NCBI GenBank assembly: GCA_043228905.1
Contig: JBHGNT010000022.1
Coordinates: forward strand, 11,160,001-11,224,000
Reading direction: 5' to 3'
Length of the DNA: 64,000 nucleotides
Origin: Azolla caroliniana
Lineage: Eukaryota > Plantae > Polypodiophyta
The notes under the pieces are model-generated. The model saw nothing but the letters and a program-made list of their open reading frames with translations. It ran no database searches and was not told where the DNA came from. The translations under genes were made by a program, and so were the position numbers. The first letter of the stretch is position 1, and every line of letters begins with the position of its first letter. This document shows, one piece after another, positions 8,475-56,947 of the stretch.

Positions 8475-10688
8475 ATGGGGAAGAACAAAGAAGCTTCAGC
8501 AGCAGCAGCACAGCCCCCCAAAGGCTCCTCCAAAGACAGCAAGAAAGAATCCCAACAACCCAAGAAGGAGAAGCTGTCTGTCTCGGCTTTCCTCGCTGGC
8601 CTCGATAGCAAGAGTAAAGACAGCCTCCCCGGTGCCAAACCTAAACCTAAACCTAAGCAAGCCAAAGCTCAAGATGACTACATCTCCGGTCTCGATCTGC
8701 CCCCTTCCGATGACGATGAAGAAGATGAAAGACCTGAGATCAGCGAAGAAGAGATGGAGAAAAGAAGGCACCAGGCTGAATTTGGTCCCGGGATGGGCGC
8801 GGCGTCAGAGAAGGATGCCAAGAAAAAGGAGAAGAAGGATCAGATGGCTGCCCACGTGGCCGAGATAGCGAAGAAAGAAGCTCTCAAGGATGATAGGAGT
8901 GCTTTCTCTGTTGTGGTCGGGTCCCGGACCTCAATCCTCGACGGTGAAGATGGCGATGGCGATGCCAATCTCAAGGACATCTCGGTGGAGAATTTCTCGG
9001 TCTCGGCACGAGGTAAGGAGCTCTTTAAGAATGCTTCGGTTAAGATTGCTCATGGTCACAAGTATGGACTTGTGGGTCCTAATGGGAAGGGTAAATCTAC
9101 CCTTCTCAAGCTTCTTGCATGGCGACAGCTCCCAGTACCAAAGAATATCGACATTCTATTGGTTGAGCAAGAGGTCGTGGGTGATGAGAGAACCGCTTTA
9201 GAAGCCGTCGTATCGGCCAATGAAGAGCTCATCAGGCTCCGAGAAGAGGCAATAAGGTTGCAGAACCTCACCCTTCTAGATGATGATGACGAAGAAGAGG
9301 AGATGAATGGTAAGGAGAAGGATCCCGAGATATATACAGCAGGTGAGAAGTTAACCGAGGTCTATGAAAAGCTTCAAATGATGGGTTCAGATGCAGCCGA
9401 AGCACATGCTTCCAAGATATTGGCTGGATTAGGGTTCACCAAGGCCATGCAAGGGCGGGCCACCAAATCCTTTAGTGGAGGGTGGAGAATGAGAATATCG
9501 TTGGCCCGTGCTCTCTTTGTTCAACCCACCTTGTTGCTGCTCGACGAACCCACCAACCACTTGGATCTACGAGCTGTGTTGTGGTTAGAGGAGTATCTGT
9601 TGAGGTGGAAGAAGACCCTCGTGGTGGTTTCTCATGATCGCGATTTTCTCAACTCCGTCTGCACGGACATCATCCACCTCCACGACGAGAAATTGCATCT
9701 CTATCGGGGAAATTTTGACGCTTTTGAAGTGGGTTATGAGCAAAAACGCAAGGAAGTGAACAAGAAGTTTGAGACATATGATAAGCAAATAAAGGCAGCG
9801 CAAAGGAGCGGAAGCAAAGCCCAACAAGACAAGGTGAAAGATCGAGCAAAGTATGCCGCGGGGAAAGAAGCTCGATCGAAGGGAAAAGGAAAATCTGGGG
9901 CAGAGGAGGATGAGACCCCTATTGTAGAAGTACCTAAGAAATGGAAAGATTACAGTGTACAATTTGACTTTCCTGAACCAACTGAGCTGACGCCACCTCT
10001 TCTCCAACTCATCGAGGTTCATTTTAGCTATCCTGGGAGGGAAGATTTTGCTCTCAAGGGTATCGATGTCGGCATTGATATGGGCACCCGAGTAGCCATA
10101 GTGGGCCCGAACGGAGCAGGGAAATCCACTCTACTTAACCTGCTTGCAGGTGACCTAGAGCCATTACAAGGGGAATGTCGAAGAAGCCAGAAGCTCCGGA
10201 TCGGGAGATATTCTCAACATTTTGTGGATTTGCTTACTATGGATGAGACCCCAGTGCAATATTTGTTGAGGCAATATCCGGATCAAGAAGGGCCAAGCAA
10301 ACAAGAAACAGTTCGAGCAAAGTTGGGGAAGTTTGGCTTACCGAGCCATAATCACCTTACACCTATCATAAAACTCTCTGGAGGGCAAAAGTCCAGGGTT
10401 GTGTTCACGGCCATTTCAATGGCAAAACCTCATATTTTGCTCTTAGATGAGCCTACCAATCACCTGGATATGCAAAGTATCGATGCTTTAGCGGATGCTT
10501 TGGGTAAGTTTACAGGTGGAGTAGTGCTCGTGAGTCATGATTCTCGCCTGATCTCTCAAGTTTGCGAAGATGAAGAGAAGAGCGAGATATGGATTGTTGA
10601 TAATGGGACTGTAAGGAAATATCCAGGGTCTTTTGAGGAATATAAGACAGAGTTACAAAGGGAGATCAAAGCTGAAGTGGATGAGTAG
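8475..10688 (+). CDS. ABCF4: ABC transporter F family member 4-like (soluble twin-ABC ATPase), intronless, copy 1
   Basis: 737-aa ORF with two Walker A motifs (GPNGKGKST, GPNGAGKST), signatures FSGGW and LSGGQ, LLLDEPTNHLD twice, and no TM domains. N-terminus MGK...SKDSKK...KEKLSVSA is like plant ABCF4. Confidence 0.95.
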   Translation: MGKNKEASAAAAQPPKGSSKDSKKESQQPKKEKLSVSAFLAGLDSKSKDSLPGAKPKPKPKQAKAQDDYISGLDLPPSDDDEEDERPEISEEEMEKRRHQAEFGPGMGAASEKDAKKKEKKDQMAAHVAEIAKKEALKDDRSAFSVVVGSRTSILDGEDGDGDANLKDISVENFSVSARGKELFKNASVKIAHGHKYGLVGPNGKGKSTLLKLLAWRQLPVPKNIDILLVEQEVVGDERTALEAVVSANEELIRLREEAIRLQNLTLLDDDDEEEEMNGKEKDPEIYTAGEKLTEVYEKLQMMGSDAAEAHASKILAGLGFTKAMQGRATKSFSGGWRMRISLARALFVQPTLLLLDEPTNHLDLRAVLWLEEYLLRWKKTLVVVSHDRDFLNSVCTDIIHLHDEKLHLYRGNFDAFEVGYEQKRKEVNKKFETYDKQIKAAQRSGSKAQQDKVKDRAKYAAGKEARSKGKGKSGAEEDETPIVEVPKKWKDYSVQFDFPEPTELTPPLLQLIEVHFSYPGREDFALKGIDVGIDMGTRVAIVGPNGAGKSTLLNLLAGDLEPLQGECRRSQKLRIGRYSQHFVDLLTMDETPVQYLLRQYPDQEGPSKQETVRAKLGKFGLPSHNHLTPIIKLSGGQKSRVVFTAISMAKPHILLLDEPTNHLDMQSIDALADALGKFTGGVVLVSHDSRLISQVCEDEEKSEIWIVDNGTVRKYPGSFEEYKTELQREIKAEVDE

Positions 10689-12499
10689 ACAAACTAAATG
10701 AAAAGAAAAATCAAATGAGAAAAGAAATCAATCATTGATTTTGTTAGTTTTTTATTATACAAAATGTATTCGTACCTGAAGAGTTTGTTGTTAAGGTCCC
10801 AAAGACTTTAAATCGGCATGGATCGATTTTATTTTCTTCTTCCCAGATTGTTCTAATGTGATCTTCTGTTTTTTTAATGTATGACATTGTGTTAGTTCTT
10901 ATTTGTGCGCTGAATATACATGCGCAGAGAAAGCAGTTAGCTCTCAAGGTCTTCGGTTATACAATATGGTCATTCTTTTGGCCGCTTTATCATTTCTTGT
11001 AATTGTTACTTGTAGTAATTGAATAAAAGCTTCATATATGAAGTATAAAATGAACTCTTTCTGCATTGAATAAAATTCAAACTCACCTAGTTTGCTAAAA
11101 GAATCAACATGTGCTCTCTGTTTTACTGTAAAGAATCCAAACCTTAATTGTTTTAATGATAAAAAAAATCCCTACCTTGGATTGTCATGTAATGAAGTTT
11201 AGGTAACAAGTTGGATATGCACATTATATAGAGACTAAAGCAATCATCTCCTAAAACTGTTTGTCACCCATTGCAGTGATTTCATTTCATTGGAATGCAT
11301 GTCAAATTTCTGGGTTTGATTCCATTCTCCCTCTAGATGATCCAAGCATGTCGTTTTAGAATTAAAACAATTTGTTGCAAGTTGTGAATTGAACTTTATT
11401 CTACTTGTGAGTGTATGTGGTTTATTTCTCTCCTGTGGATTTTAATAATGTGTTTGTCGCCCATGGATCTGTTTATATCTTCTATCTGTATGTCTATAAA
11501 TGGTGTTTCCCAACAATCTTTTTCACTGCTCTCATTGTGTGAATGTGGATTTTAAATCAAAACATTGGAGAGTTCTTCCATATCAATTCAAAATTTCAAC
11601 CACAAAACTCCCCATTTCTTTTGCATAGATGTGATCTCACACTTCAACCGAATAAAATTACATATTCTCATTACTTCTCCAGCAATATTCACAGCATCCA
11701 AATTCTATATAGCCTTGCTACTCATGCCTTTCATTATGAGGACATATTGTATATTTAAAAGGTGGGAACCATGGAATGTCTGAGATTCAAATGCAACCAC
11801 TAGACACCAAAAAGGCATGGTTATGAGCAAGCAAAGGCCCTCATGTTAATCTTCCAAGTTGAGGAAGATTCGAACTTCATCTGCTTTTGGAAATAGCTTA
11901 ACATTTAGGTCACCATTCTCGAACACACTATTGAATATGGCATCTCCTGATTCTCTTTTCCATAAACCTGAACAGGTAAAGCTGTAGGTCGACCTTTTAA
12001 AACACTGCAATGTCAGCTTCATTTCAGGCTACATAATGTGTACATCAAGGATTTTCCTCTCATTCTCATTCTAAATCAGTTAGGTTCTTAGAGAGAATAT
12101 CGATTTTATTTCCCATTATGACATATCTTAACAGGATCAAAGAGATTTTTATCATATTGACCTTTGACAGCCAGTCTCAGTTTATTATTTAATTGCCCAA
12201 CAGCTTCTATAGGATATTGTGAAGCATTGGAACTGGCTTCTATCCCAATAATGACCAATTTCAGAATTTACAAACATTGACCATCTCACCATCTGCTTAC
12301 ATTTCCAATAACAAACACTTTACTTCTTCTGTATCTGGTGATAATAAATCATCTCTACTATTGCAATACTACAAGTTTACTTAACTTCTTTTGGGATAAA
12401 GAAACACATCTTCCCTGAACTTGAAATACCAAACAATTTCTATATAGCATAACCAAATACGAAGTAGTTTATCTCATACAATACACATCAAAGACTCCC

Positions 12500-15400
12500 T
12501 AACAACTCTCTTTCTTTTAACTGATAATCAGGAGGGATTTTCTGTGGAGAGATTTCACAACCATTAAATTTGGATAGAGATTGATTGATTAACAAAATGC
12601 CAAAACAATCAATCAGGTTCCAAAAGGACTCAATTAAATTAAAAGGAGCTAGTATACGATCCTTGCATCACCCCAGGTTTTGAAAGATTCATATTAATGT
12701 CAGCAAGCTCTAACTGTCAAGAAGCAAAAGCCAAACAGCATTGTGGAACTTGCAATGATGTATTCAGTTCTACAGTGTAAAACATGGCCTTTTTTATTCT
12801 ACCACCGAGTGGCGGAAGACTAAGTTGCAATGATTTCACTTGGCAGATTGAAACAGGTTGGAGTAAACTATCATGACAAAAGCTCACTGTAACGGATTTG
12901 TTTTCTAAAAAGAAGTAAAGAAGGCTTGTTCAAACTCGTTGCGTAGCGCTTTAGTACCAGTAGAGCCAGAAGATTTATAATAGAATGAATACTACACATG
13001 AAGATCCCCAAGGTGATTTTTAATCAGACATTTGGTGTTCACTGTTTTGTGCAAAGATTGTAAACGCTTTAATTCTTTAGAAGAAACGAGGGCAAGACAT
13101 GACATAAAAAGCACCAACGTGATGGACGACATGAATGTAATGAAGAATTAATATCCTTTAGAAACCTACAGGCGATCTGTGCAAACTTGAATTAAATAGA
13201 GAAGAAGGCTTCTTTTAGAATAACCAAAAGCTGAGTTCAACACTCGACTCTTTTGTCATTGCATCGACCTTGACAAAAACATTTCAAACTGGGGCCTCTT
13301 AAAACAAAAGACTGCTCTTACTGAGACAGTTCCAACACATAACAAAAAGCTGCAAAATATGACTTCAAAAAAACCAACCAGATTGTCTTTAATTTTGTTC
13401 ACAATGGCACTATACTCTGAAACCCTCTTTCCAAATTTTGGGCTTCAACAAATTCAACAATTCCATTTTGAACTAATTGAAACCATGCCCAGAAAGACAG
13501 CTTTGTTTTCCTGTGGCTGCATTGTAACCTGAATTCCACCTGATTAGAGTTTACATAAGAGAAGATTGTGATACAGGCTTGATCATAAAAAAACCACATT
13601 TGTATCCTCAGCTTTTGGATGAAATCATGGATATTATAAGCCTTATGATTGTGTACCAAGTATGAAATTTCTGGCATACAAAAAGCTAATCAAATGATCT
13701 AAAACGAAACAAATATTCTGCAATGCAGAATCACATACATGAGAACTCTGTTTAAAAAGAGAATAGTTCTAGTAATATTACTTTACCATCTTAGAATCCT
13801 ATGGCCTAGATATGGATGCTGAAAACATAAACCAAAGACCATTAAGATATGTGAGTACGACGTTCAACATCTAATGGTTCTGTAAACTTACAACCAAAAA
13901 ATGGCTGATTTAGAGATTTCATTGTCTATTTATTGAGTGTCAAACCATCCACAAAGTCCATGATATGCAAGATACTGCAGTGTTTTACAGTAAGACAGGG
14001 ATCCATCCCGTAGTTCTAATCCATGTTGAGTAGTCAAGTTGCAAGTATTCAGGAGGTATTCTAATTGTTCATGGATTGATATTGCTGGAACCTTCGTTAG
14101 TAGCTCATGCACCTTCCTTGCAGAAAGACTTGTTTTAAGAGGTCATTGATCGATGGCAATGAAATCACAAATATATATTGTTTTTCCTTTCAAGGAGCAA
14201 GCTGCATTCATGAAATGCTGCCAATAATAATAAAATGTACAGTGCATCATATTTAAACAAGGGGATAGTAATTTGACAAATGAAATGGCATAGCATAGAA
14301 ATGAATGATATAGCTACAACGCCTAGGGAACACTACACATTCCCACAGTTCTTTTACATCCTACAAATATTGCTAATAAGACTTCTCAAGAACTAGGACA
14401 TTGAAATCCTCCATCCCAAGTGATACCCACATGCAATTCCATGGTTTGACTGTGCCAGTCACTATTATTTCATATTTCAGTTCTCCATCTCTGCAAAGAA
14501 GTCCAACACCCTCTCCGGATAGAAATCACTCTCTTTTTCTCGTATTATATTCTGCAGCGTGACATATCCAATAACCCTTTTCTATTTATCAATGGCATAA
14601 ATCAACAATATGATGCTCTTATGATGATGACATAAGCTACAAAGTTTGGAGTGCTTGAGGGTTGAGTTAGCCAGCCAGGAGGGATATGAATGGCTCAAAG
14701 ATATAATGAATGGATCCTCCTTACTGAGGATGGTTTCACCATGCTTCAGCAGTCTAAGGTTGAAAACAGATACTGGGGCATTTTGGCGACTGTACTCCAC
14801 ATAAACAAGAAGAAGATGAATATAATCACGTATGCCAAGATGTCCACAACCATGTATCTTTGGAGATCTGAGCCAATTTATATAAGAATATGAATCAGTT
14901 TCTATCCATAACAATCAATATCTCTCTCTGTTTAACTATAGGACAAGCATCCCAAAATGGCGATCCCTCATCACTCTCTATGGTAATAGATGTCAATGAA
15001 ACGGAAAGGATGGCCATCCATAATGGTAGACAAGGCGCTGTGATGAGAAAAATGTGGTTATCGATGTTCACATGCAAATCATACAGACAGCTACTATCTG
15101 GTTGCCAACTTGTATATGATCAGAATAGCTTCACTGTATATCATTCCATGTGATGCACCACGGTATTATCACACATTTTGCCAGCAACAACCATTAAGAG
15201 TTCATATACATACATGTTAATATATATATTTACAGTTGAAGAATCATCCAGACATTATTATATACGGTTGAAAAATTAGGGCCGGTTTTATGCATAAATA
15301 TGAGCTCGTTGCCCCATGTTCTATTTTAACATGAGTGTGGCTCATATTCTGGAAGCGATAGAATTCTTGAATAATAGAATGAAGACTAACCCCTTATATG

Positions 15401-15870
15401 ATTCTGCTTCATTATAAGTGGCCAGATCCCACTCTCATTCCTGTTGCAGATAAAGTACCTTGCAAATTCATCGATCTGGCACATCCTCGTTTTGGGTCTC
15501 TTTGTGGAAAATCATCCGGACGTGGATTGAACAATGCAACCTTTTCATGCCAAAGTCTAAAACAAATGATTACTCTTTTCCATATCACCTCAATCAACAA
15601 ACATATCAAATATATTAGCATTCTGATCATGCAGTTAGAAAAAAGTTTCGCATCTTGCAAACATGCAACTATCATATATAAAAGAGGTGATGAAATCCAA
15701 TAAAACGAATTTCAAGGTATTAGAATACAATAAAATAACAAGCACATTCTGGTGTGAACCTTACTCTTGTACTTCTGAAGCGACTTTCTTTGACAGAACC
15801 ATATTCCCACAATTAGTGCCTTACAGTTCCCCACAATCTGGCCTCGTGATTTTCCACCATCAAGCTCCTC
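12500..15870 (-). pseudogene. NRPA2: Decayed, internally deleted genomic duplicate of NRPA2 (exons plus introns)
   Basis: The reverse strand is collinear with the intact gene: exon 4 (~15760-15830), intron 4/exon 5 (15400-15680), exon 6 start (~15050-15100), intron 13 (14300-14900), exon 14 (14010-14120, KVPAISIHEQLEYLLNTCNLTTQHGLEL vs [28 protein letters not shown]), intron 14 (13740-13920), last exon and 3' UTR (12500-12900). Confidence 0.92.
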
Positions 15871-16589
15871 CATACTGTCACTCACACACCAAGCACTGAG
15901 GAATATCATTCGTTCTTACTTTATTTCATTATATTATATTATTTATTTTGTTAGTTATGAGAAGATTCTATTCACTACTTGCAATGAATAGTTTTCCATG
16001 TGGCATGCATTCAAATGAAGTGAAATTGGCACGAAGAGAAACAAATGGTTTCAGTAGGTCATTGCTTAAGTCTCTACATAAGGAGTACATCCGACTTGTT
16101 CAATATATTTAGGGAAGATCGTTATGATATACATGGCCAAGTAAACAAAAGAGAGCAATTCTAAGCTAGTTTTAAAAAGAAGGTGACTTTCTATTTCATT
16201 CAATGAAGAAAGCATTCACTTTTCCCTTAATATACAAAGAATATCTTCATTTCAAGAAGATTGAAGCTTTATTCAAATATGACAACCAACAATCAAAAGA
16301 AACATTTGAATAATCCTGTTGTCTACCCATGGACTCTGAAAAAAGAACTCTCTCTGTCATGTACATTCATATCAAAACGAAAAAGTTATGATTGTTTTGT
16401 CTCAATAAAAAAATAGGCATCCCATTCGAACTATCTGGGAAGAAGAAAATAAAACAATCCACTCCCATTTTAAGTCTCTGAGGCCTTAATAGAAAACTCT
16501 TACCAAGCAAAAACAAAATTTTGGAAGAGGAAAAATAGACAAATAATTGATTTCTCTGCTATTTTGATTTTTCTTTTCATTTAGTTTGT

Positions 16590-18824
16590 CTACTCATCCA
16601 CTTCAGCTTTGATCTCCCTTTGTAACTCTGTCTTATATTCCTCAAAAGACCCTGGATATTTCCTTACAGTCCCATTATCAACAATCCATATCTCGCTCTT
16701 CTCTTCATCTTCGCAAACTTGAGAGATCAGGCGAGAATCATGACTCACGAGCACTACTCCACCTGTAAACTTACCCAAAGCATCCGCTAAAGCATCGATA
16801 CTTTGCATATCCAGGTGATTGGTAGGCTCATCTAAGAGCAAAATATGAGGTTTTGCCATTGAAATGGCCGTGAACACAACCCTGGACTTTTGCCCTCCAG
16901 AGAGTTTTATGATAGGTGTAAGGTGATTATGGCTCGGTAAGCCAAACTTCCCCAACTTTGCTCGAACTGTTTCTTGTTTGCTTGGCCCTTCTTGATCCGG
17001 ATATTGCCTCAACAAATATTGCACTGGGGTCTCATCCATAGTAAGCAAATCCACAAAATGTTGAGAATATCTCCCGATCCGGAGCTTCTGGCTTCTTCGA
17101 CATTCCCCTTGTAATGGCTCTAGGTCACCTGCAAGCAGGTTAAGTAGAGTGGATTTCCCTGCTCCGTTCGGGCCCACTATGGCTACTCGGGTGCCCATAT
17201 CAATGCCGACATCGATACCCTTGAGAGCAAAATCTTCCCTCCCAGGATAGCTAAAATGAACCTCGATGAGTTGGAGAAGAGGTGGCGTCAGCTCAGTTGG
17301 TTCAGGAAAGTCAAATTGTACACTGTAATCTTTCCATTTCTTAGGTACTTCTACAATAGGGGTCTCATCCTCCTCTGCCCCAGATTTTCCTTTTCCCTTC
17401 GATCGAGCTTCTTTCCCCGCGGCATACTTTGCTCGATCTTTCACCTTGTCTTGTTGGGCTTTGCTTCCGCTCCTTTGCACTGCCTTTATTTGCTTATCAT
17501 ATGTCTCAAACTTCTTGTTCACTTCCTTGCGTTTTTGCTCATAACCCACTTCAAAAACGTCAAAATTTCCCCGATAGAGATGCAATTTCTCGTCGTGGAG
17601 GTGGATGATGTCCGTGCAGACGGAGTTGAGAAAATCGCGATCATGAGAAACCACCACGAGGGTCTTCTTCCACCTCAACAGATACTCCTCTAACCACAAC
17701 ACAGCTCGTAGATCCAAGTGGTTGGTGGGTTCGTCGAGCAGCAACAAGGTGGGTTGAACAAAGAGAGCACGGGCCAACGATATTCTCATTCTCCACCCTC
17801 CACTAAAGGATTTGGTGGCCCGCCCTTGCATGGCCTTGGTGAACCCTAATCCAGCCAATATCTTGGAAGCATGTGCTTCGGCTGCATCTGAACCCATCAT
17901 TTGAAGCTTTTCATAGACCTCGGTTAACTTCTCACCTGCTGTGTATATCTCGGGATCCTTCTCCTTACCATTCATCTCCTCTTCTTCGTCATCATCATCT
18001 AGAAGGGTGAGGTTCTGCAACCTTATTGCCTCTTCTCGGAGCCTGATGAGCTCTTCATTGGCCGATACGACGGCTTCTAAAGCGGTTCTCTCATCACCCA
18101 CGACCTCTTGCTCAACCAATAGAATGTCGATATTCTTTGGTACTGGGAGCTGTCGCCATGCAAGAAGCTTGAGAAGGGTAGATTTACCCTTCCCATTAGG
18201 ACCCACAAGTCCATACTTGTGACCATGAGCAATCTTAACCGAAGCATTCTTAAAGAGCTCCTTACCTCGTGCCGAGACCGAGAAATTCTCCACCGAGATG
18301 TCCTTGAGATTGGCATCGCCATCGCCATCTTCACCGTCGAGGATTGAGGTCCGGGACCCGACCACAACAGAGAAAGCACTCCTATCATCCTTGAGAGCTT
18401 CTTTCTTCGCTATCTCGGCCACGTGGGCAGCCATCTGATCCTTCTTCTCCTTTTTCTTGGCATCCTTCTCTGACGCCGCGCCCATCCCGGGACCAAATTC
18501 AGCCTGGTGCCTTCTTTTCTCCATCTCTTCTTCGCTGATCTCAGGTCTTTCATCTTCTTCATCGTCATCGGACGGGGGCAGATCGAGACCGGAGATGTAG
18601 TCATCTTGAGCTTTGGCTTGCTTAGGTTTAGGTTTAGGTTTAGGTTTGGCACCGGGGAGGCTGTCTTTACTCTTGCTATCGAGGCCAGCGAGGAAAGCCG
18701 AGACCGAGAGCCTCTCCTTCTTGGGTTGTTGCGAGTCTTTCTTGCTGTCTTTGGAAGAAGTGGAAGGCGCTCCTCTTCCATCATCTGCGAGTCTCTCTTG
18801 CTGGACCTTCTTCTTGGGACCCAT
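16590..18824 (-). CDS. ABCF4: ABCF4-like copy 2, intronless, with a foreign NRPA2-like N-terminus
   Basis: 744-aa ORF nearly identical to copy 1 from SSKDSKK onward. First 18 codons align with NRPA2 exon 1. Confidence 0.95.
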   Translation of the reverse strand: MGPKKKVQQERLADDGRGAPSTSSKDSKKDSQQPKKERLSVSAFLAGLDSKSKDSLPGAKPKPKPKPKQAKAQDDYISGLDLPPSDDDEEDERPEISEEEMEKRRHQAEFGPGMGAASEKDAKKKEKKDQMAAHVAEIAKKEALKDDRSAFSVVVGSRTSILDGEDGDGDANLKDISVENFSVSARGKELFKNASVKIAHGHKYGLVGPNGKGKSTLLKLLAWRQLPVPKNIDILLVEQEVVGDERTALEAVVSANEELIRLREEAIRLQNLTLLDDDDEEEEMNGKEKDPEIYTAGEKLTEVYEKLQMMGSDAAEAHASKILAGLGFTKAMQGRATKSFSGGWRMRISLARALFVQPTLLLLDEPTNHLDLRAVLWLEEYLLRWKKTLVVVSHDRDFLNSVCTDIIHLHDEKLHLYRGNFDVFEVGYEQKRKEVNKKFETYDKQIKAVQRSGSKAQQDKVKDRAKYAAGKEARSKGKGKSGAEEDETPIVEVPKKWKDYSVQFDFPEPTELTPPLLQLIEVHFSYPGREDFALKGIDVGIDMGTRVAIVGPNGAGKSTLLNLLAGDLEPLQGECRRSQKLRIGRYSQHFVDLLTMDETPVQYLLRQYPDQEGPSKQETVRAKLGKFGLPSHNHLTPIIKLSGGQKSRVVFTAISMAKPHILLLDEPTNHLDMQSIDALADALGKFTGGVVLVSHDSRLISQVCEDEEKSEIWIVDNGTVRKYPGSFEEYKTELQREIKAEVDE

Positions 18825-18904
18825 CTCTGGATGGGGTCTCCCTCAATCAGCAACAGGGAGGGCGAGGCAGGGCCTTGAAGGGCAAGAGGAAGAAGCAGAA
18901 GCAC

Positions 18905-18950
18905 AGAGAGAGTGTGTGTGTGTGTGAGTGAGTGAGTGAGTGAGAGAGAG

Positions 18951-18988
<38 letters not shown>

Positions 18989-19115
18989 GAGCGTTATTTT
19001 TCATGAGGTGTTTATCAATATAGAGAGAGAGAGAGTTTGTGTGTGTGTGTGTGTGTTTTGAGTGTTATTTTTCATGATGGGGTTTATCAATATATATATA
19101 TAGAGAGAGAGAGAG

Positions 19116-19165
<50 letters not shown>

Positions 19166-19204
19166 GAGTGTGATTTTTCATGAGGTGTTTATCAATATAG
19201 AGAG

Positions 19205-19241
<37 letters not shown>

Positions 19242-19685
19242 TTTGAGTGTTATTTTTCATGAGGGGTTTATCAATATATATATATAGAGAGAGAGAGTGT
19301 GTGTGTGTGTGTGTGTGTGGTTTGAGTGTTATTTTGCATGAGGTGTTTATCATAGAGAGAGAGAGTGAGAGAGAGATTGTGTGTGTGTGTGTGTGTGTGT
19401 TTTGACTCTCGAGTGTTATTTTCCATGAAAGGGTTTATCGAGAGAGAGAGAGAGAGAGAGAGAAAGAAAGTGTGTGTGTGTGTGTGTGTGTGTTATTTTT
19501 CATGAAAGGGTTTATCGAGAGAGAGAGAGAGAGAAAGAAAGTGTGTGTGTGTGTGTGTGTGTTATTTTTCATGAAAGGGTTTATCAATAGAGAGAGAGTG
19601 TGTGTGTGTGTGTGTGTGTGTGGAGAGGGAAAGAGAGAGAGAGAGAATGTGTGTGTGTGTGTCTGTCTGTGTGTTTTGCGTGTTT
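18905..19685. repeat. Compound minisatellite: about nine units of (GT)n-TTTGAGTGTTATTTTTCATGAGGGGTTTATC-(TA)n-(GA)n
   Basis: Core recurs at ~18985, 19056, 19161, 19241, 19320, 19400, 19490 and 19560, with a further unit at 23185-23240. Confidence 0.9.
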
Positions 19686-22600
19686 TTTTTGTTTTTTTTT
19701 TTCCAAAAACATATCCTCCATTGGTATTAAAGAAATCAATATACAAAACAGTCCGCTATTACAATCAATATTGCAACATATTTAAGTAAAAAACTTCTTG
19801 AACAGTCATGTAGCTTCAGCAATCCAGCCACCTTTATCGTCCATATTAATCAAGGAATTACCACCAATGACCTTTATTAATGGAGTCTATGCGACATATA
19901 TTTCTAAGCATTCCGTCTCTCATTTTGATTAGCAAACTACCACCATTAGAAATCCTTGCAATCTGATCGAAACTTTGTCGATGAATTCCAATGGTTGGCG
20001 TCGATGAATTGTTGCCACCGAAATCATAAGACCACTGAAGAGTCTGTTTTCTAGTATCTTTACAACATTCCATGAAGCCGCATCTTGTTAAGTAGACACT
20101 CCCTCGAGGTCTTTCCAAGTCCACTTAATAACAACCTTTGATAAGGACCACAAAATAATGTAGTGAACCATGTATTTACTCATCATTCCTTCAGTTTTTT
20201 ATGCAGTTTGCTCTTCCTTTGAACTTGTTAACCGAGCAGCTCATTGTGTTAAAACTCATTCTTGATCTGTAGTTGAGAACTTAAGAGTTCAAATGGATAT
20301 TCCACTACCTCCCAATGTTAAGAGCCCACGAAACATGTTTGACTGGATTATCTTCTTCATCGATGTCTCTTAGCTCAGCAGTGCAAAGCCATCGTTGATG
20401 GGAATGCTGAAATCCCCAAACCTTAGCAATATTGAGTGAAGTTGAAGTTGAATTGCAACCAAAAACGAATGCAGGATGTGGACTTATCAACGTAGAAGCC
20501 TTCGAAGACACAGATGCTCCAAAAGACGAATTGGTAACATTCTTTTCCGCCAGAGTTCTTGCATTTTAGAACTCAGACCTGGTTGTCCACCCTGTTTGTT
20601 GGTAGTCCTGCTTAACATATATACCATGTTTGTCCACAAGATATTGCTTTTTGGCAAATGTTTGTATATCAAGGCCTTCTTCATCTGTTGCGGTTGAAGA
20701 CACCAAACAGTCCATAATGCACATGTCATGATTGGCTGCCTAGGACAACCCCCATCTATCCTCTCCCATGACGAAACGACCATGTCCTTCATCTCCACGA
20801 TCATTGAAAATATATTTGTATTGAATCTCCTTCGCATCAACACTCTGGTTTATCACAACAGCCATGCGCCGGTTACACCACAATCATCTACCCAGTCAAA
20901 ATTATTTTATTAAAAATAAATTAGATAGTCGGCTTCGACCCCCCCACCATCTTCACTCATCCTTATCAGAGAATAATTTCTTCATTCAATCCACATCAGT
21001 CATCTCACCGATTATCATCTTGTTAATGCCAATGTCCACGAAAATCCTGTGTTAACAACCAAAAATTAGTCCAAAAGTTTCCTCACCCACTCCTGATAGT
21101 CGGCTTCGACCCCCCCACCATCTTCACTCATCCTTATCACAGAAAAATTTCTTCATTCAATCCACATCAACCATCTCGCAAATTAGCATCTTGCCTTGCC
21201 AATGTCCCCACAAATCCTGTATTAACAACAAAAAATTAGTGTAAAAGCTTCCTCACCCACTCGTGATAATCGGCTTCGATCTCCCCACCATCTTCACTCA
21301 TCCTTATCACAAAAAAAATTTCTTCGTTCAGTCCACATCAGCCATCTTGGCAATTAGCGTGTTGCCAATGTCCACGAAAATACTGTATTAACAACAAAAG
21401 ATTAGTCTAAAAGTTTCCTCACCCACTCTTGATAGTCGGCTTCGACCCCGCCACCATCTTCCCTCATGCTTATCACAAAAAATTCTTCAATCAGTCCACA
21501 TCAGCCATCTTGCCGATTAGCATATTGCCAATGTCCACGAAAAACCTGTATTAAAAACAGAAATTAGTGTAAAAGTTTCCTCATCCAGTCATGTTAGTCG
21601 GCTTCGACCCACCCACCATCTTCACTCATCCTTATCGCAGAAAAATTTCTCCATTCAGTCCCTATCAGCCATCTCGCCGATTAGCATCTTGCCAATGTCC
21701 ACGAAAATCCGCATCAATCAGTTGATTGTCATTGAGTATCCCCAATAGCTTAAACCTACAGAAACAAACATGAATGCACACTCTCGTGTCCTTATGAAAA
21801 TCATTATCAATCATTCCTCTCTAAGGTAAAGCATCATTATTAGTCATCCCTATCTAAGGTAAAGCATCTGCTATATTATCCGCACCAATCATATCAGAGA
21901 TTACCGCCAAAAGCTTATTTTATGAAAAGACTCTTGCTATGTGCCAGAATCACCTCTTCCATGTTGATTTATGTTGTGTGCTCTAAGGACGGTGCTGGTG
22001 GCGGGAACAACCAACGAGGTGGTACGTAATTCCACTTGACATTAGCCTCTGCATCCAACATGATAAGAATAGATGACCAAACTCTTCTAATGCTCCTTCT
22101 TTTTCGACTAGTTGTGTCTCCTGATCCCTTACAACTGTCATAATCACCTTTAACCGTATGTACCAATAGGTCCCAGAAAGACTTAAGTTGTTCTACAACA
22201 TGAGTATTTTCATCCTTGTATAGCTTGGAACACCTAGCTTTCCAAAGAACCCATAAACCCAAAGAGGAAACAATTTGCCAAACATAACTCTGCGAGAAGA
22301 ACTTGATTCCCTGCAAGGAACTTGAGCTAGCATATACTTGAAAACTTCTCACATGTAAAGACTAAGAAGAATGCTGATAATGATAAAAGGCCAATTGTTG
22401 ATCCAACATTCCCCAAAAGATTGCACCCCACGTGAAGAAAGCCGAGGTATAATTATGGCCTAAAAGCCTAAGAATTCGAAACCAAAACCTTTTAGCGAAC
22501 AAACATTCCCAAAATACATGATGCAATGACTCAGATGAAAACCCACACATAACACATGACCGATCACGCACTGAACCCCTGAATAGTTCACCTACTGGCA

Positions 22601-23184
22601 ATGCATAATGAATCATCAACCAACGAATATGCAATATCTTATTCATACATTTAGTTACCCAAAACCGTTTCCAAAACATCCGCATATGAGCCGACGAGAC
22701 ATTACCTTCCTCCCAATACTTGTTTGCGGCTGGGACCAAGTCGATCTGATTCAACATAAAGTTTCTACCCAACGCCACCGAATATGAGAAGAATGGAAGG
22801 ATCTTATTCGTTGTGTTAGACATGGACAATTTCCAACCATAATCCGATGGGTCCCACTGCAGGTTGACAAGTGGCCTAGAGTGTAAAACCCAAATTTGAG
22901 ATGCATAGTTAGCAATTAACGGACTAGGATCGATCAATTTTTTTTATCTAATCTAGCAATTACTCTAACTAGCAACTGCTTTGCATTGGACATAATTAGA
23001 GACTCGTCCGCCACTAATAACAATCTACCATTGTCCAAAACTTCATAACAATAAAAATTGCCATTACGATGATATAAACGAGCTCCTGTAAGTACATTAA
23101 ATGTCGAAAACATACCGTACCAACTTTGAAAATGATCAAACTGCAAAGTTGGTAGTGTGATCTGATACGCTTCAGATGTACTAT
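19686..23184 (-). mobile_element. 5'-truncated LINE: ORF2 3' end (zf-RVT-like) plus long 3' extension and poly(A)
   Basis: CVMCGFSSESLHHVFWEC and WVLWKARC in 21969-23146; T-tract at ~19684-19702; imperfect TSD TGTGTTTTGCGTGTT / TGTGTTATGAGTGTT splitting one minisatellite unit. Confidence 0.7.
20920..21710. repeat. Tandem repeat, ~5 x 162-171 bp
   Basis: GATAGTCGGCTTCGAC and variants at 20924, 21095, 21265, 21431 and 21593. Confidence 0.9.
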
Positions 23185-23789
23185 GTGTTATGAGTGTTAT
23201 TTATCATTAGGGGTTTATCGAGAGAGAGAGAGAGAGAGACTTTGTGTGTAAGTGATTGATTAATTGTAAGAATGAATGTTGGATGGGTTTTAGACGAGGT
23301 CCATCGAGAGTAGTTCATTCGGAATTCATGATTCCCCTCGTCGTCCTCCAGACATGGGCTCCAAAAAGTCGGTTACGTGATTCTCGCTTCTTCTGGAGGC
23401 TTTGGTGCTCTTAATTTATCTTCCACTCCATAGAATTCTAATATCTAGATCCCGACAGAGTGTATCGAGAGCCATTGTTGTTGTCTTCTGCATGAGTTGA
23501 AGCACAAACATGCATACTCAACATGGTGAGGGCTGATTTATAATCTCTTGTGTCGTTAGAGCTCGAGGTTTTTCGGGGTTGCATCAATGAGACTTTGGTG
23601 AGTGGATTTATTTTATATTATGGATCCCTTATTGATGCACCCATCTCTCTTCGTTTAGAAGAAAATGTATTCTCTTCATTTGGTTGTGAATTGTCGAGAA
23701 TTTACGAAGATCATCATTTTGCTATTTCATTCATCTGAAGTATTTTGAGGCATCTTAGTATGACCAAATGATTCATGACGGTGGATATT

Positions 23790-25130: not shown

Positions 25131-26409
25131 GTCTAACCATTTGCATGCACTTCAAGTATAGTATAGTCAAGGTAATTGAAAACTTAAAGTGAGCATTTAC
25201 ATATATGCCATTGTTTTGGCTCACAAACAAAAAGTGTATTGTCGTATACCAAAGGGGATGAATAATTCTATCTAATCGCATTTCATTAAATTTTGAAGCT
25301 AGATAAATCAATTATAAAATACATGGCATGCACTAACACTTCTTACGTGATAAGGATGCAAAGGACAAAGAAAGAGGAATATTTAAGAAGAGGAGAACAT
25401 GAAGGAAAGCATGGAAATCCACAACATCAAAAGGTGTGTTAGCCTTTATTTATGAGCCAAGGCCACCCAAAATCAAAGTTCTACCTCTTAGTTTACATCT
25501 CATTTCTTTGTGCTCATTTCTTGCATTCACCATCATAGACACTCCTCACAATCACTATCATGATTATTTTGTGTTTTTGTTGTAATCCTATCTTGTAAAG
25601 GGGTTTTCTATTAAAACTAAGGTTATTGGGTTTTAATCTTGGTGTTATTATAATAGATGACAGGAACTACACGCTCCGATGAACACCGCTCGGCCACAAC
25701 CGAGTCTAAGATCAAACACAGAAAACGAGAATGAATACACACGACACAAAGGAGAGAAAAGTACACAAGATGTTTAACATGGAAAACCCTGAGAGGGAAA
25801 AACCACGGGAGTCCACAAACTCCAAACTATCACTATATCACAATGATTACAACAATGAGCTCACGGAGGCAACGACCTCGCGCTCACGATCTTTGCCACA
25901 AGCGGCGGTTACAACAGAGGCAACGACCTCTCTATCTCTCTCTCTCTCTCTCTCTGTACACTGTTACGCGCTTTCTAGTCTTGCGCCAACAAGAATGACA
26001 ACAACTCTATTCTCTGTTTGCCCTAAGTCATATTTATACTAATATGACTTTTCGGCTATTTACAAATATAGCCCCGATGGACTCTCAGAAACATATTTAC
26101 AAATATGTCCCTTCATCTGGCGAGCACTCCTCACCGGGCCTGCATCATCCGGCGCTTGCCGGGCACACGTCATCCGGTTCTCACCAGGTCTCCACCATCC
26201 GGCTCGTGCCGGGTACTCCACATCTGGTTCTCACTGGGTCTTCACCATCCGGCTCATGCCGGATACTCCACATCTGGTTCTCACCGGGTCTTCACCATCC
26301 GGCTCATGCGGGTTCTCCACATCCGTTTCTCACCAGGTCTTCACCATCCAGCTCATGCCGGGTACTCCACATCCGGAGAGACCTGTTTCCTAACAAACTC
26401 CCCCTTCAC

Positions 26410-30736: not shown

Positions 30737-30783
<47 letters not shown>

Positions 30784-32920: not shown

Positions 32921-33007
32921 GGTGGTAATGAAGTACCTAATGATAGTTGGGGTGTTACTCGCTAGTTGATCTTGAGCACAACTATCATCGTGGGGAAATT
33001 TATGTAT

Positions 33008-43865: not shown

Positions 43866-44031
43866 ATGATAATTGTGATGATAAACCCTTCCATGAAGAA
43901 AAGAAGAAACAACACTTCCTCAAAAACAAACCCCTTCAACTCTCTCTCTCTCTCTCTCTCTGTGAGACTCTGTTTCTGAGCGGAGGAAAGAGGGGGAGGG
44001 GTGAAGAAGAAGAAGAAGGCGATCTTCAGAC

Positions 44032-44470
44032 ATGGGGACGATGAAGAAGAAGATGGTGGAAGAGAAGAGCACAGGTGATGGAAAAGGAAGAGGAAGAGGA
44101 AGAGGAAGAGGAGGAGGAGGAGGTACAGGTTTGGCATCGATGTCTGCTCTGGTTGCGCCTCACATCGAATCGTTCGACTACTTTGTGAACCATGGCCTCC
44201 AGCAATCTGCCCTCGCTATCCGCCCTGTCGAGCTCCTCCAGCAGTCCACTCAGACTAAGCTGAGAAATATCCTTCTTTTTCTTCTCTTCTTCCATTGCTC
44301 TATTTTATTCTGGTGCTATTCTTTATTTTCGGCTTTTCTGTCTGAAAATTCAATAATTATTTTGAATTTTTCATGAATCGTTGAGAGAGAGAAAGATATA
44401 TTAACGTCTTCTAAGACCGAAATTGGCCCATGAGACAATTGGTTTACAACAAAAGTGGGGTATTTACCCA

Positions 44471-44552
<82 letters not shown>

Positions 44553-47500
44553 ATGACAGCTAAATGTTCAACTCTGACATTCCACAGCAGCAGTGGCATC
44601 TAGTAAAGTAGTGCATATTGTGAGATTTGAAGCCAGATGCATGAGCTGGTAAAAGCAGTGGTTACACTAGGTAAGCCCGTTATGACAAAAAAAGAAGAGA
44701 GTTAGAGCAGCTGATTTGTTGGAATGTAACTTGGGAGAAGTATTTTGTGGTGACCGAAAGTAAAACATTTGAATTCTTCTTGACCTTGTGTCGATAGCCC
44801 ACAGCGCACAACTAGGCTTAGTGGATTACAAAAAGAGAGTGCAAGAGAGAGTTAGAGAACTGTCTAGTGCCAAGAAGAAAGTCATGAGTTTTTTTTTATG
44901 CATTTGGCTTTCCTTGACTCTTTCGATACTATGGATTGAAAGACCTGTTCTCAGCCCTCCGTTGAAGGATGTCAGGGATAAGAGTCAATTCTTGGATCAG
45001 CGAATCAAGCCCCTGGAGGTGATCTCTTGGAAGTCATTTCTTTTGTTTTGGATCTTTTCAATTCTTATGTTTTGCTCTTTTGTTTCGGATCTTTTTAAAT
45101 GCATTAGGTAGATGTCCTTTTACTTTAAAAGAGAAAAACGTTTTGATTCATCCTCCACAGTGCCGTCAAGGTGGGCTTACATACAAAGGTCAACTTACTG
45201 CCGACATATGTTATCAATGGAATGATCAGGCTGTGATTCGATTTAGTGCTTCTTTGGGTCATGTTCCAGTAATGATCAAGGTATGAAACGCTGTTGATGA
45301 TTTGATCTCATTTTGAAAGAAAATTTGAACAAAAGATGTGCATTTATTATTTCTACTATCTTTTTACCTGAACAACTTGATGAGATTTCAAAACAGTCAA
45401 CAATTTGCCACTTGCGAGGTGCTGATAGTGGGAAATTGGTTGCTTTAAAAGAAGAAGCTTCAGAAGTAGGAGGGTAAGGCTCATACTGGACTCATGTTAT
45501 GTTATTTTGTCGTGTTCTAATTTCTTATGATTTTTTGATGGATTGGTTGGAATAACATCAGATTTTGTCACCATTTTAATATATGATAGTTGCATGTTTG
45601 CAAGTTGCTCACTTTTTGTACTGCATGATCAGAATGTTAATAGCTTCAATTTGTTCACAGATTATGATAGCTGTTTTATATTTTGGCATAAAAAGGCTGC
45701 GTAAAAAGATTATTTTTCATAGAGACTCGAATGTATGCACAGGTACTTCATTTGCAATGGGAATGAACGTATCATTCGGTTGCTTGTTGTGACCAAGCGT
45801 AATCATGTAAGTTCCCCATTACATATAATTTACAACCATTTATAAATATATGTATATGCATGTCTATGAACCCTCTCTTCTTGTGGCTAACAACACATGT
45901 GATAATACTGTGAAGCCTCCCATGCAATAATATGCTGTAGCAATGCACTAGATAGTACCGTGTAAACATCTGATTTTATATTTCCTTACAACTGGGCAAA
46001 CAGATAGTAGCTGTGCGCAGAGGTTCATACAAGAATAGAGGCCCTTCTTACACGGACATGGGTGTCTTCATCAGGTAAGAAAGAATATTGACAGTTTCAA
46101 CAGTCAGATAGGATACAAATAGATCACCATGAGAAGAATTTGACTTCTTTTTGCAGGTGTGTCAGACCTGATCAGTCAGCAGTTTCAGTAAAGTTGTACT
46201 ATTTACAATATGGTGGTGCATCATTAGCATTTTCGTATGTATTGTTGAAATTTATGTTCATATCTTTACATATGTATGCCATTTTTAACCTATGTTCATA
46301 ATCGCCTTCAAATAAACTGATATTTTCAGCCTCCGTCGCCAGGAGTTCCTTATACCTGTGGGAATCATCCTTAAGGTCTGGTCTTCTTATTATACCAAAA
46401 AGCAAATACCCAACAAAGAAATAATAATGTTATAGATAATGAGCATTTAAAGGCCTGAGAGTCAAAAGTCACATGATGTTTTTGTTTCTCTGTAGGCTTT
46501 ATCCAATACTCAGGACAAGGAAATTTTTGAACTTTTGACATCTACATATAATGAAAGAAATACAGGGAAAAGGGGTGCAGTTGGAAGTCAATTAGTGATC
46601 CAGAGAGCGCAAATCATTCTCGAGGAAGTTAAGCAACTTGGAATGTTTACAAGATTGCAATGCCTTGAATACATTGGTGGGTAGGAACCTATAGTTAGGT
46701 AGGATATTCATAGTAAATCTTTTGTAATTCCCTTATTCTTATCATGCCTTCCAGGTGAGAGATTCCGTCCTGTACTGGATGGAGTAGAAGGCCAACTTGC
46801 TGCTATGGTAAGCACATTTTGTGATTCCCTAAGATTCATGTAAAAAGATTGGTTTTTAAGCTAAAGTTTGTATCTAATATTCAACAGATCGGTGAAAGAG
46901 TTCTTGAAGACTACATTTTTGTACATCTAGACACATGCTTTGACAAATTCAACCTTCTTATGTGAGTATGCCAACTGGCACGTTGGAAAATCTTCCTGCC
47001 AGGTCTGCTTATATTTATAAACTAAAAATCACTCTATGATGGTTTTTGCTTTTTAGTTATATGCTGCAGAAGCTTTTTGCACTAGCTGATCAAACTGCTG
47101 CTCCAGATAATGTTGACGCACTTCAACATCAAGAAGTTTTATTACCTGGTCATGTACTCACTATGTATGCCAAGGCAGGTTAACATTAATCCACCCCAAG
47201 CTGTTGTACTCTGACCTAATCCATGCATCTAAAATGTTGTGAACTTTGAAGAAACGAACTTCTTAAAGCACTACAGAATCATGCCATATGTAATTCATGA
47301 ATATTATATGTTTTGAGTCCACAACTGTACAATGAATGTGCAGGATAGAATGCAAGATTGGTTGACAAGGGTACGGAGGGTTCTAGCAAAAGAATTAGAA
47401 GATCATCCAAATGAATTTGACCTGCAGGATGGTGAGTAAGCCTTCACTATTCATCTAGGAAATAAAAGAATACTATTTCATTTTTGCTTTCGACCTTGGA

Positions 47501-56500: not shown

Positions 56501-56947
56501 TGGATATATTTCAATTGCTTCTTGGTTCAATAGGTGAGATCGAGAGGTGCAGTGAATCCTGTTACACAACAGCCCGTGAAGGGGCGGGCGGCGGGTGGTG
56601 GAATCCGGTTTGGAGAGATGGAGAGAGACTCTCTACTAGCACATGGGGCCGCATATCTGTTACACGACCGATTACACACTTGTTCTGACCATCATATCGC
56701 GATGGTTTGTTCTTTTTGTGGTAGTTTACTCTCACCTGTTTCGGTCTGCCAGGTGAAATCATCTCAGCTTAGTCTTCCACCACCTGGTGGTAGAACCAAG
56801 AAGGCTATGTGTAAGTATTGTAAAACTGGACGTGGCATTGAGAGAGTGGCAATGCCATTCGCCTTTCGTTACTTAACCGCTGAGCTCGCGGCCATGAATA
56901 TGAAACTTACATTGAAAATTTCAGATGATGCAAGGAGGAAGATGTAG
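44032..56947 (+). CDS. NRPA2: DNA-directed RNA polymerase I second-largest subunit (RPA2/RPA135), ~26 exons
   Basis: [113 protein letters not shown]. Approximate exons: 44032-44266, 44930-45018, 45161-45280, 45397-45473, 45743-45806, 46004-46074, 46157-46234, 46331-46375, 46497-46677, 46755-46807, 46888-46961, 47057-47174, 47344-47431, 49671-49786, 51044-51171, 51247-51327, 51849-52090, 52366-52518, 52928-53088, 53177-53251, 53338-53517, 54167-54301, 54384-54527, 55313-55525, 56114-56372, 56534-56947. Confidence 0.96.
44267..44929 (+). other. U12-type (minor spliceosome) AT-AC intron 1 of NRPA2
   Basis: 5' site ATATCCTT, branch point TTCCTTGAC (44910-44918), 3' AC. Splicing gives in-frame KLR-I-WIERP. 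Confidence 0.92.
48110..48306. repeat. Near-exact 2 x 99-bp tandem duplication in NRPA2 intron 13
   Basis: AGATCATGGTCCATGAGACC...CTGATCGGGATCCCAT occurs twice. Confidence 0.9.

What the first reader, a model, noticed from the sequence alone, without database searches (positions are those of the whole stretch)
12500..19685. Chimeric ABCF gene built inside an inverted NRPA2 duplicate, using its start codon, N-terminus and upstream region
Seen: copy 2 begins MGP-KKKVQQERLADDGRG and NRPA2 begins [19 protein letters not shown]; by hand 39 of 54 aligned nt match. Copy 1 has the ordinary ABCF4-type start. Upstream of copy 2, the motif GATAAAC(C/A)C(C/T)TCATGAAAAATAACACTCAAAAC followed by a (CT)n tract mirrors NRPA2 43879-43960. 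Downstream of copy 2 and its ~650-bp ABCF-derived 3' flank, the minus strand resumes as NRPA2 exon 4 through the last exon. Inference: an ABCF segment replaced mid-exon 1 to intron 3 of an NRPA2 duplicate in frame. That would put a translation-associated ABCF ATPase under a Pol I subunit (ribosome biogenesis) promoter with a new basic N-terminal tag.
Basis: partly seen in the sequence, partly recalled or inferred. Interest (0 to 1): 0.85.

Follow-up and report, generated by a model that had tools for sequence, protein, structure and literature searches.

The report
Fern ABCF gene with borrowed start
A fern has a second, back-to-back copy of a translation-factor gene whose first 18 codons and short upstream piece come from a ruined copy of a neighbouring RNA polymerase I gene; gene conversion likely keeps the rest identical to the original, so it is likely a spare copy rather than a new function, and use of the borrowed start is untested.

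Summary
The fusion is real. ABCF4 copy 2 (18824-16590, minus strand, open 744-aa frame) starts with 18 codons matching NRPA2's start (39/54 nt; the best of 2,999 ATG-centred sites in the window). Its upstream motif occurs in 523 Mb only there and before NRPA2. Downstream, decayed NRPA2 pieces resume in order. Fern orthologues start like copy 1.

Corrections: only about 19% of NRPA2 survives. The borrowed upstream piece is about 150 bp, amplified to at least 9 tandem units and split by a young LINE-like insertion. The new head is not a strongly basic tag (+2 versus +1).

Spliced minus-strand contigs cover copy 2's 3' region in two studies. Copy 2 carries two amino-acid changes unseen in 120 homologues. 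One run's contigs join copy 1's head to copy 2's tail, hinting that the 5.9-kb spacer flips.

Verdict: a new member of a known kind (chimeric duplicate tethered by conversion), likely a spare ABCF4 copy. Expression of the chimeric head remains open.

The parts
8475..10688 (+). ABCF4 (ABC50/ABCF1-type) copy 1, parent gene, intronless ORF of 737 aa with the ancestral MGKNKE start
   Evidence: contigs of organisms D and E join this head to this gene's type of 3' end
10689..11393 (+). 3' flank of copy 1, donor of copy 2's 3' flank
   Evidence: about 72% identical to 16563-15966 beyond the first 26 nt; JC 0.34
12468..12873 (-). Pseudo-NRPA2: second half of the last exon and 3' flank (matches 56719-57117), with a stop codon and frameshifts
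13460..14709 (-). Pseudo-NRPA2: intron 13 end, exon 14 and intron 14 pieces (match 49041-50619; exon numbers are my count)
   Evidence: E 1.6e-122, JC 0.275
14868..15390 (-). 523-nt GT-AG intron skipped in contigs of two runs; new splice sites
   Evidence: table 5 (X1, X14)
15087..15865 (-). Pseudo-NRPA2: end of intron 3, exon 4, intron 4, exon 5 (donor lost), intron 5, start of exon 6 (match 45375-46014)
15541..15764 (-). 224-nt GT-AG intron skipped in contigs of two runs; its donor is the old NRPA2 intron-4 donor, its acceptor is new
   Evidence: table 5
15866..15965 (-). 3' junction: about 100 nt of unassigned, A-rich filler
   Evidence: no significant match to NRPA2 intron 3 (160 of 500 shuffles) or the ABCF flank (244 of 500)
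15966..16589 (-). ABCF-derived 3' flank and 3' UTR of copy 2
   Evidence: bridged to the coding region by a contig of X2 and covered in X14
16590..18824 (-). Chimeric ABCF4 copy 2, open ORF of 744 aa with all ABC motifs intact; core 18626-16564 differs from copy 1 at 4 of 2,063 nt
18771..18824 (-). NRPA2-derived start codon and first 18 codons
   Evidence: 39 of 54 nt
18825..18930 (-). Leader between the array and the ATG; collinear with NRPA2 43962-44031 but not significant on its own
18931..19691 (-). Tandem array of the NRPA2 upstream unit (motif plus CA/CT/TA microsatellites), 8 full units and a partial one; each full unit carries an ATG
19692..23175 (-). Young 3.5-kb LINE-like element inserted into the first array unit: poly(A) end, 15-nt target duplication with 2 mismatches, dispersed copies up to 95-97% identical
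23176..23240 (-). Orphan first unit of the array, on the far side of the insertion
43879..43962 (+). NRPA2 upstream unit, donor of the array
44032..56947 (+). NRPA2 parent gene (RNA polymerase I second-largest subunit), about 26 exons by my count; the only intact copy that one search found in the genome

Best explanation
Copy 2 is an ABCF4 gene whose first 18 codons and about 150 bp of upstream DNA come from a decayed, inverted NRPA2 duplicate; it likely arose in one old DNA-level rearrangement, is likely kept identical to copy 1 by gene conversion, and likely acts as a spare, weakly constrained source of nearly the same ABCF4 protein. Steps. (1) Shown: two donors, collinear NRPA2 pieces on both sides, and an in-frame join near 18770. 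(2) Inferred: a local template-switch or break-repair event between two genes 30 kb apart copied the NRPA2 head, then ABCF codon 12 to about +700 nt, then NRPA2 from the end of intron 3 onward, and set the composite down inverted next to copy 1. Later deletions removed most of the NRPA2 remainder. (3) Shown: the core coding regions are 99.8% identical while all flanks are 0.27-0.35 diverged. Inferred: repeated conversion between the inverted 2.1-kb arms, so only the head, upstream region and 3' UTR can differ. (4) Shown: the upstream unit was amplified to at least 9 copies and split by a LINE-like element. (5) Shown as contigs: the region behind copy 2's stop is covered and spliced in the minus-strand sense. 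Inferred: most transcripts end about 260-310 nt after the stop, and read-through forms with two 3' UTR introns would be NMD substrates. (6) Inferred, untested: transcription starts in the array and yields an ABC50-type ribosome ATPase with a swapped disordered head. Odds: structure 0.93, conversion 0.9, DNA-level origin 0.8, chimeric head expressed 0.5.
For: Head homology and controls. Motif at only two loci in 523 Mb. Collinear intron-bearing NRPA2 blocks, JC 0.27-0.34; ABCF 3' flank JC 0.34; 5' unit JC 0.35, so one age class. Core: 4 of 2,063 nt and 1 of 289 fourfold sites differ, P about 1e-31 against a neutral 23%. Organisms D and E differ from the window by about 4.5% in the coding region (98 of 2,161 nt, X8), so both copies share lineage-specific letters gained after that split. 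An X2 contig joins a coding region with 5 differences in 2,056 nt to 100 nt of copy 2's own 3' UTR, so the homogenisation is not a polishing artefact. GT-AG joints at 15764-15541 and 15390-14868 stand in X1 and X14, two studies. The less-converted 5' edge has 4 synonymous and 2 conservative differences in about 40 codons (read), a mild sign of constraint. All ABC motifs are intact.
Against: Copy 2's two private amino-acid changes are both Ala to Val. One hits a site with Ala in 120 of 120 homologues; at the other, Val occurs in 0 of 120. All 8 laid runs show the copy-1 letter at both sites, so they are relaxed-selection changes, strain variants or assembly errors. An open head is expected by chance in 13-34% of neutral simulations, so it does not prove selection. 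Every contig that crosses 18755 continues as the copy-1 head (7 contigs in X1, X2, X3, X4, X8, X10); contigs drop minority forms. In X2 the laid contigs form the path copy-1 head, coding region, copy-2 tail, which an inverted spacer explains more simply. Every full array unit carries an ATG that would be an upstream ORF if transcribed. The RNA status of all runs is a guess by the tool.
Confidence: 0.55

Rival explanations
1. The chimeric head is silent or nearly so, and copy 2 is a pseudogene kept intact by conversion. The transcripts over copy 2's 3' region come from copy 1's promoter, because recombination in the inverted repeats (or the assembly) has flipped the 5.9-kb spacer.
For: X2 contigs form the path copy-1 head, coding region, copy-2 tail with no fork (records 14 and 15, overlapping by 30 nt). 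All 7 contigs crossing 18755 are copy-1 type. Two unusual Ala-to-Val changes. Upstream ATGs and a LINE-like insertion in the array.
Against: The assembled order is the ancestral one: NRPA2 head and tail are collinear, and organisms D and E join the copy-1 head to the copy-1 type tail. Contig assembly removes bubbles and short tips, which can create such a path. X14 holds both tail types, though it also holds a second, more diverged ABCF4 haplotype. The 5' edge shows mostly synonymous change.
Confidence: 0.3
2. One reading: copy 2 is neofunctionalised, co-regulated with Pol I and ribosome biogenesis through the borrowed promoter, and retargeted by a basic N-terminal tag.
For: The ORF is open after an old event. 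The borrowed unit holds AAACCCT, one plant telomere unit, in NRPA2 and in 3 of 8 array units. Structural heterogeneity can let a converted paralogue keep a new role (PMC3449122 section 5).
Against: No full telo box and no site II motif in either upstream region (definition from PMC3022908 passages). Head charge is +2 versus +1. The head diverged at the neutral level. Upstream homology ends at the array.
Confidence: 0.1
3. The ABCF segment entered the NRPA2 duplicate as a 5'-truncated retrocopy with a target-site deletion (jingwei-like origin), not by DNA-level copying.
For: The insert lacks the first 11-12 codons and the 5' UTR and ends in an A-rich stretch. LINE-like elements are active in this genome. 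The parent is intronless, so intron loss cannot exclude this.
Against: The insert lies within 6 kb of its own parent and 30 kb of the other donor. Shared flank runs 619 nt past the stop (E 1.7e-10) and weakly to about 700 nt, longer than the 388 and 437 nt of 3' sequence in contigs of X8 and X4 (contigs do not show RNA ends). About 1.3 kb of NRPA2 is missing at the site.
Confidence: 0.15
4. The head resemblance is chance between purine-rich starts, and copy 2's head is a diverged ABCF start.
For: Both parents start with similar purine-rich codons (NRPA2 vs copy 1: 11-61 of 1000 shuffles), and most ABCF4 proteins begin MGKKK.
Against: 0 of 1000 shuffles reach the score; best of 2,999 plus 1,852 ATG sites; motif unique to the two loci; collinear NRPA2 remains downstream.
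Confidence: 0.03

Closest known systems
jingwei (Drosophila; Adh sequence inserted into Yande, a duplicate of yellow emperor), as described in PMC3449122 passages
   Same: A foreign coding sequence sits inside a DNA-level duplicate of another gene, takes its start and 5' part, and the host's downstream exons decay.
   Different: jingwei is a retrocopy in an intron. Here the join is inside exon 1 with a deletion, is likely DNA-level, adds only 18 codons, lies next to both parents, and is homogenised with its parent.
fog-2/ftr-1 (C. elegans) and the tether-of-gene-conversion model, PMC3449122 section 5
   Same: Neighbouring paralogues are converted across their shared region while the non-homologous part escapes.
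   Different: fog-2's unique part is a 3' exonised non-coding sequence with a shown function. Here it is a 5' head from a second gene, and no function is shown.
Type I fusion genes of Oryza (PMC9199173 abstract and one results section); also Sdic and Qtzl
   Same: Both parents survive and a duplicate fuses parts of each. 310 fusion genes were found in four rice species, so plant fusion genes are common.
   Different: Only 2 of 35 expressed Type I cases had both parents in the same region. The parts I read do not describe inversion, conversion or promoter-unit amplification. This case is in a fern.
Plant ABCF4/GCN4, ABCF1 (ABC50) subfamily (PMC6723617 passages; database names)
   Same: Two ABC domains, a charged N-terminal domain and no membrane domain; 70-78% identity to plant homologues.
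   Different: The first 11-12 residues are replaced by 18 NRPA2-derived ones, and there are two Ala-to-Val changes in the inter-domain region.

Membership tests
ABCF1/ABC50-type ABCF (plant ABCF4) | Two ABC ATPase domains with Walker A, signature, Walker B and H-loop | tested here: met
   PF00005 with 2 stretches; motifs at 208/551, 341/642, 361/662, 393/694
ABCF1/ABC50-type ABCF (plant ABCF4) | No membrane-spanning domain; long charged N-terminal domain | tested here: met
   only ABC/AAA-type Pfam families hit; sequence; hits named ABCF4, ABCF1 or ABC50
ABCF1/ABC50-type ABCF (plant ABCF4) | Binds eIF2 and the ribosome | not testable with these tools
   family property from PMC6723617 passages
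NRPA2/RPA2 (parent gene) | Full-length match to proteins carrying the Pol I-specific domain PF06883 | tested here: met
   top hits carry PF06883 and are named Pol I subunit 2; P0122 residues 10-1186 align across 44122-56935
Chimeric gene duplicate (definition in PMC3449122) | Derived from two or more donor sequences, at least one genic, both identifiable | tested here: met
Chimeric gene duplicate (definition in PMC3449122) | Intact fused reading frame | tested here: met
   744-aa ORF
Chimeric gene duplicate (definition in PMC3449122) | Chimeric transcript is made | tested here: inconclusive
   3' region covered and spliced; contigs crossing 18755 are copy-1 type
jingwei-type chimeric retrogene | RNA-mediated origin (intron loss, poly(A), target duplication) | tested here: inconclusive
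   parent is intronless; A-rich filler unassigned; shared flank longer than the 3' sequence seen in contigs
jingwei-type chimeric retrogene | Insertion in an intron with recruitment of spliced upstream exons | tested here: not met
   join lies inside exon 1; codon 19 to intron 3 is missing
Concerted evolution by ectopic gene conversion | Tract far more similar than its flanks, also at silent sites, with graded edges and shared lineage-specific letters | tested here: met
   core JC 0.002, 5' edge 0.049, flank 0.34; 1 of 289 fourfold sites; relatives differ by about 4.5%
Telo-box/site II ribosome-biogenesis promoter | AAACCCTA with site II motifs near the start | tested here: not met
   only the 7-mer AAACCCT and no site II motif in the NRPA2 or copy-2 upstream regions scanned; definition from angiosperms; site II motif recalled

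The most novel reading that the evidence does not exclude
The conversion-maintained inverted pair is a recombination switch. Flipping the 5.9-kb spacer swaps 3' ends between two promoters (the native one and an amplified NRPA2-derived one), so either promoter can drive ABCF4 with a normal tail or with a long, spliced, NMD-prone tail built from a dead Pol I gene. Both orientations would segregate, or alternate somatically, in this fern lineage.
Probability: 0.1. Interest if true: 0.8.

Novelty: new member of a known kind. Interest (0 to 1): 0.42.

Why it matters
It is an unusually legible case of gene birth by fusion. Both parents, both junctions and the decayed remainder lie within 50 kb. Conversion holds the protein body constant, so any role of copy 2 must lie in 18 residues, about 150 bp of amplified upstream DNA and its 3' UTR. 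That makes it a natural test of whether a duplicate can survive on regulatory difference alone under conversion. It also warns that near-zero synonymous distance misdates such duplicates, and that short-read transcriptomes merge them. I found no description of this locus in the searches named in the full report. Fusion genes as a class are common in plants, which limits the surprise.

Tried and rejected
Expression of the copy-2 head. No RNA holder listed on record (13 of the 14 holders are RNA by guess, one unknown). I laid 8 of the 21 listed runs. None has a contig over 18756-18930. The tool skips repeats at 18876-18930, filters some records, and contigs drop minority forms, so this hole proves nothing. 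Likewise, no cover of copy 2's tail or the pseudogene in organisms D and E, apart from 36-nt patches, is not evidence of absence.

Proteins with the copy-2 head: a search with its first 65 aa gave 2 weak hits among 95 candidates, neither with this head. Neither window protein is in the exact-match collection, so that collection does not cover this organism.

Homology beyond the array: none against NRPA2's upstream 1.4 kb (173-191 of 200 shuffles) or 34-43.9 kb (only transposon hits). The LINE-like remnants upstream of both genes share only about 24-29% protein identity in their longest blocks, so I rejected them as duplicated together.

The array unit as a common repeat: rejected. The A-rich filler as intron 3 or ABCF flank: not significant. 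The open head as proof of selection: rejected. Contig depths were not used to rank the copies. Earlier findings: none returned. No fold or complex prediction was run, because 18 likely disordered residues would not be informative.
Full report
Setting. The window is G000:C22:11160001-11224000 in a 523-Mb genome. The best named protein matches are fern proteins (Pteridium, Ceratopteris, Adiantum), so the organism is inferred to be a fern. It holds two intronless ABCF ORFs facing each other, copy 1 at 8475-10688 (+) and copy 2 at 18824-16590 (-), and an NRPA2 gene at 44032-56947 (+). Genome searches found only these two ABCF4 copies, one intact NRPA2 last exon, a broken one at 12896-12681, and one distant paralogue.

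The observation. Copy 2's first 54 nt match NRPA2's start at 39 positions with one codon gap, against 16 for copy 1 ungapped. NRPA2's start scores highest among 2,999 ATG-centred sites in the window and above 1,852 sites in 12 other loci. None of 120 homologues has the copy-2 head (best BLOSUM score 30, against 40 for NRPA2), and the three closest start like copy 1. A degenerate 18-mer fitted to both upstream motifs occurs four times in the genome, three in front of copy 2 and one in front of NRPA2, against one for the reversed control. Weak points: the leader alone and the motif unit alone are not, or only marginally, significant against shuffles, and the two parents' starts resemble each other slightly.

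Anatomy. Read on the minus strand, the composite is: an orphan upstream unit (about 23216); a 3.5-kb LINE-like element (23175-19692) with a poly(A) end, a 15-nt target duplication with two mismatches and dispersed relatives up to 95-97% identical; eight full tandem units; a leader; 18 NRPA2 codons; ABCF from about codon 12 to about 700 nt past its stop; about 100 nt of unassigned A-rich filler; then NRPA2 from the end of intron 3. The remainder keeps introns but only blocks around exons 4-6, exon 14 and the last exon. With the head these total 2,507 of 13,239 nt. It has a lost splice donor, a stop and frameshifts. So 'exon 4 through the last exon' overstates it, and the borrowed promoter is at most about 150 bp. 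No homology was found further upstream.

Age and conversion. The NRPA2 blocks (JC 0.27-0.34), the ABCF 3' flank (0.34) and the 5' unit (0.35) form one old age class. The core coding regions differ at 4 of 2,063 nt (JC 0.002) and the 5' edge at 6 of 126 plus a 6-nt indel. One of 289 fourfold sites differs, P about 1e-31 against 23%. A contig of organism E differs from copy 2 at 98 of 2,161 nt, and 35 of the 40 differences listed for organisms D and E are at third positions by my count. The duplication therefore looks older than that split (rough inference), while the two copies share letters gained after it. This is gene conversion between inverted neighbours. It is not a polishing artefact: an X2 contig runs from a near-identical coding region 100 nt into copy 2's own 3' UTR. 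With plant neutral rates of a few 1e-9 per site per year (recalled), the event is tens of millions of years old.

Origin. A DNA-level local event is favoured over retroposition. Both donors are within 30 kb, the product lies beside one parent, 1.3 kb of the host is missing at the site, and the shared flank (619 nt at E 1.7e-10) is longer than the 388 and 437 nt of 3' sequence in two relatives' contigs (weak, because contigs do not show RNA ends). The intronless parent leaves retroposition open.

Expression. Eight of 21 listed runs were laid; all are contigs and RNA only by guess. In X1 and X14 (two studies) contigs with 1-2 differences skip 15764-15541 and 15390-14868. Both are GT-AG on the minus strand, and the first uses the old NRPA2 intron-4 donor. 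X3 covers 14517-14867, and X2 and X14 cover copy 2's 3' UTR. No contig bridges the UTR to the spliced part. If these are read-through forms, introns 826 and 1,200 nt behind the stop would make them NMD substrates (PMC1693880, search listing and start of abstract only). Against a simple reading: all seven contigs that cross 18755 continue as the copy-1 head, and in X2 the laid contigs form copy-1 head, coding region, copy-2 tail. Assembly of near-identical copies can produce this, but so can inversion of the 5.9-kb spacer by recombination in the arms. Organisms D and E join the copy-1 head to the copy-1 type tail, so the assembled order is ancestral. X1, X3 and X14 also hold a second, more diverged ABCF4 haplotype that one search did not find in G000.

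Selection on copy 2. All ABC motifs are intact, but conversion alone would keep them. The head stays open in 13-34% of neutral simulations. The 5' edge has four synonymous and two conservative differences, a mild sign of constraint. Two private Ala-to-Val changes point the other way: one site is Ala in 120 of 120 homologues, and the other never has Val; all eight runs show the copy-1 letter at both. The head has charge +2 against +1, lacks NRPA2's RG tract, and NRPA2 N-termini are not conserved among the 13 homologues printed. There is no full telo box or site II motif (PMC3022908 passages), and each full array unit carries an ATG.

Mechanism. Most likely copy 2 is a spare ABCF4 locus that makes, if anything, an ABC50-type ribosome ATPase with a swapped disordered head. 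The family role comes from PMC6723617 passages. The main rival is a silent, conversion-preserved pseudogene whose tail is transcribed from copy 1 after a flip (0.3).

Comparison and novelty. It works like jingwei in layout and like fog-2/ftr-1 in its conversion tether (PMC3449122 passages and section 5). It meets that review's definition of a chimeric duplicate and fails the jingwei feature of an intronic insertion. Fusion genes are common in rice (PMC9199173 abstract and one section). Searches: chimeric gene, fern, gene conversion, Azolla (3 of 4 terms; 101 papers, 20 listed, none on this locus by title or abstract start); six terms including inverted duplication (0 papers); Azolla, genome, ABCF (0; the genus is my guess); NRPA2, chimeric, duplicate, fern (10 of 7,186 listed, none holding NRPA2). 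Searches served to find background papers. Subscription papers and the supplements of fern genome papers, which may list such genes, were not seen. Earlier scan notes returned nothing.

Verdict. The feature is real and the structure was correctly inferred; the function was overstated. It is a new member of a known kind; interest 0.42.

Noticed in passing
window 10715-16563: Spacer between 2.1-kb near-perfect inverted repeats. It could invert by recombination, and read-through across it would form a long hairpin able to silence ABCF4. Contigs reach 14087 on the minus strand.
   Followed up: partly
window 19692-23175: Young dispersed LINE-like element with an internal 171-bp tandem repeat (20924-21710, 4.7 copies); parts match other copies in both orientations.
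   Followed up: partly
window 42436-43330: Another decayed LINE-like remnant just upstream of NRPA2, only distantly related to the one above.
   Followed up: partly
window 44032-44130: NRPA2's N-terminus has a lineage-specific KKK and RG-repeat extension not seen in the 13 homologues printed.
   Followed up: no
window 17208-17741 and 18477 (runs X1, X3, X14): A second ABCF4 haplotype 1-5% diverged, in X3 with a copy-1 type head, suggests hybrid or polyploid samples; not found in G000.
   Followed up: no
window 2641-3810; 26781-30438; 32535-37456: Ty3/gypsy gag ORF; a Copia-like element flanked by direct repeats 25658-26376 and 30469-31202 (92%) holding a 50-bp tandem repeat; further Copia-like remains (Copia label from recalled motifs).
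   Followed up: no
window 38559-41465: Array of about 120-bp repeats around a transposase-like ORF at 39541-39954 (label recalled).
   Followed up: no
window 61969-62319: Exon of an O-fucosyltransferase family gene on the minus strand (PF10250).
   Followed up: no
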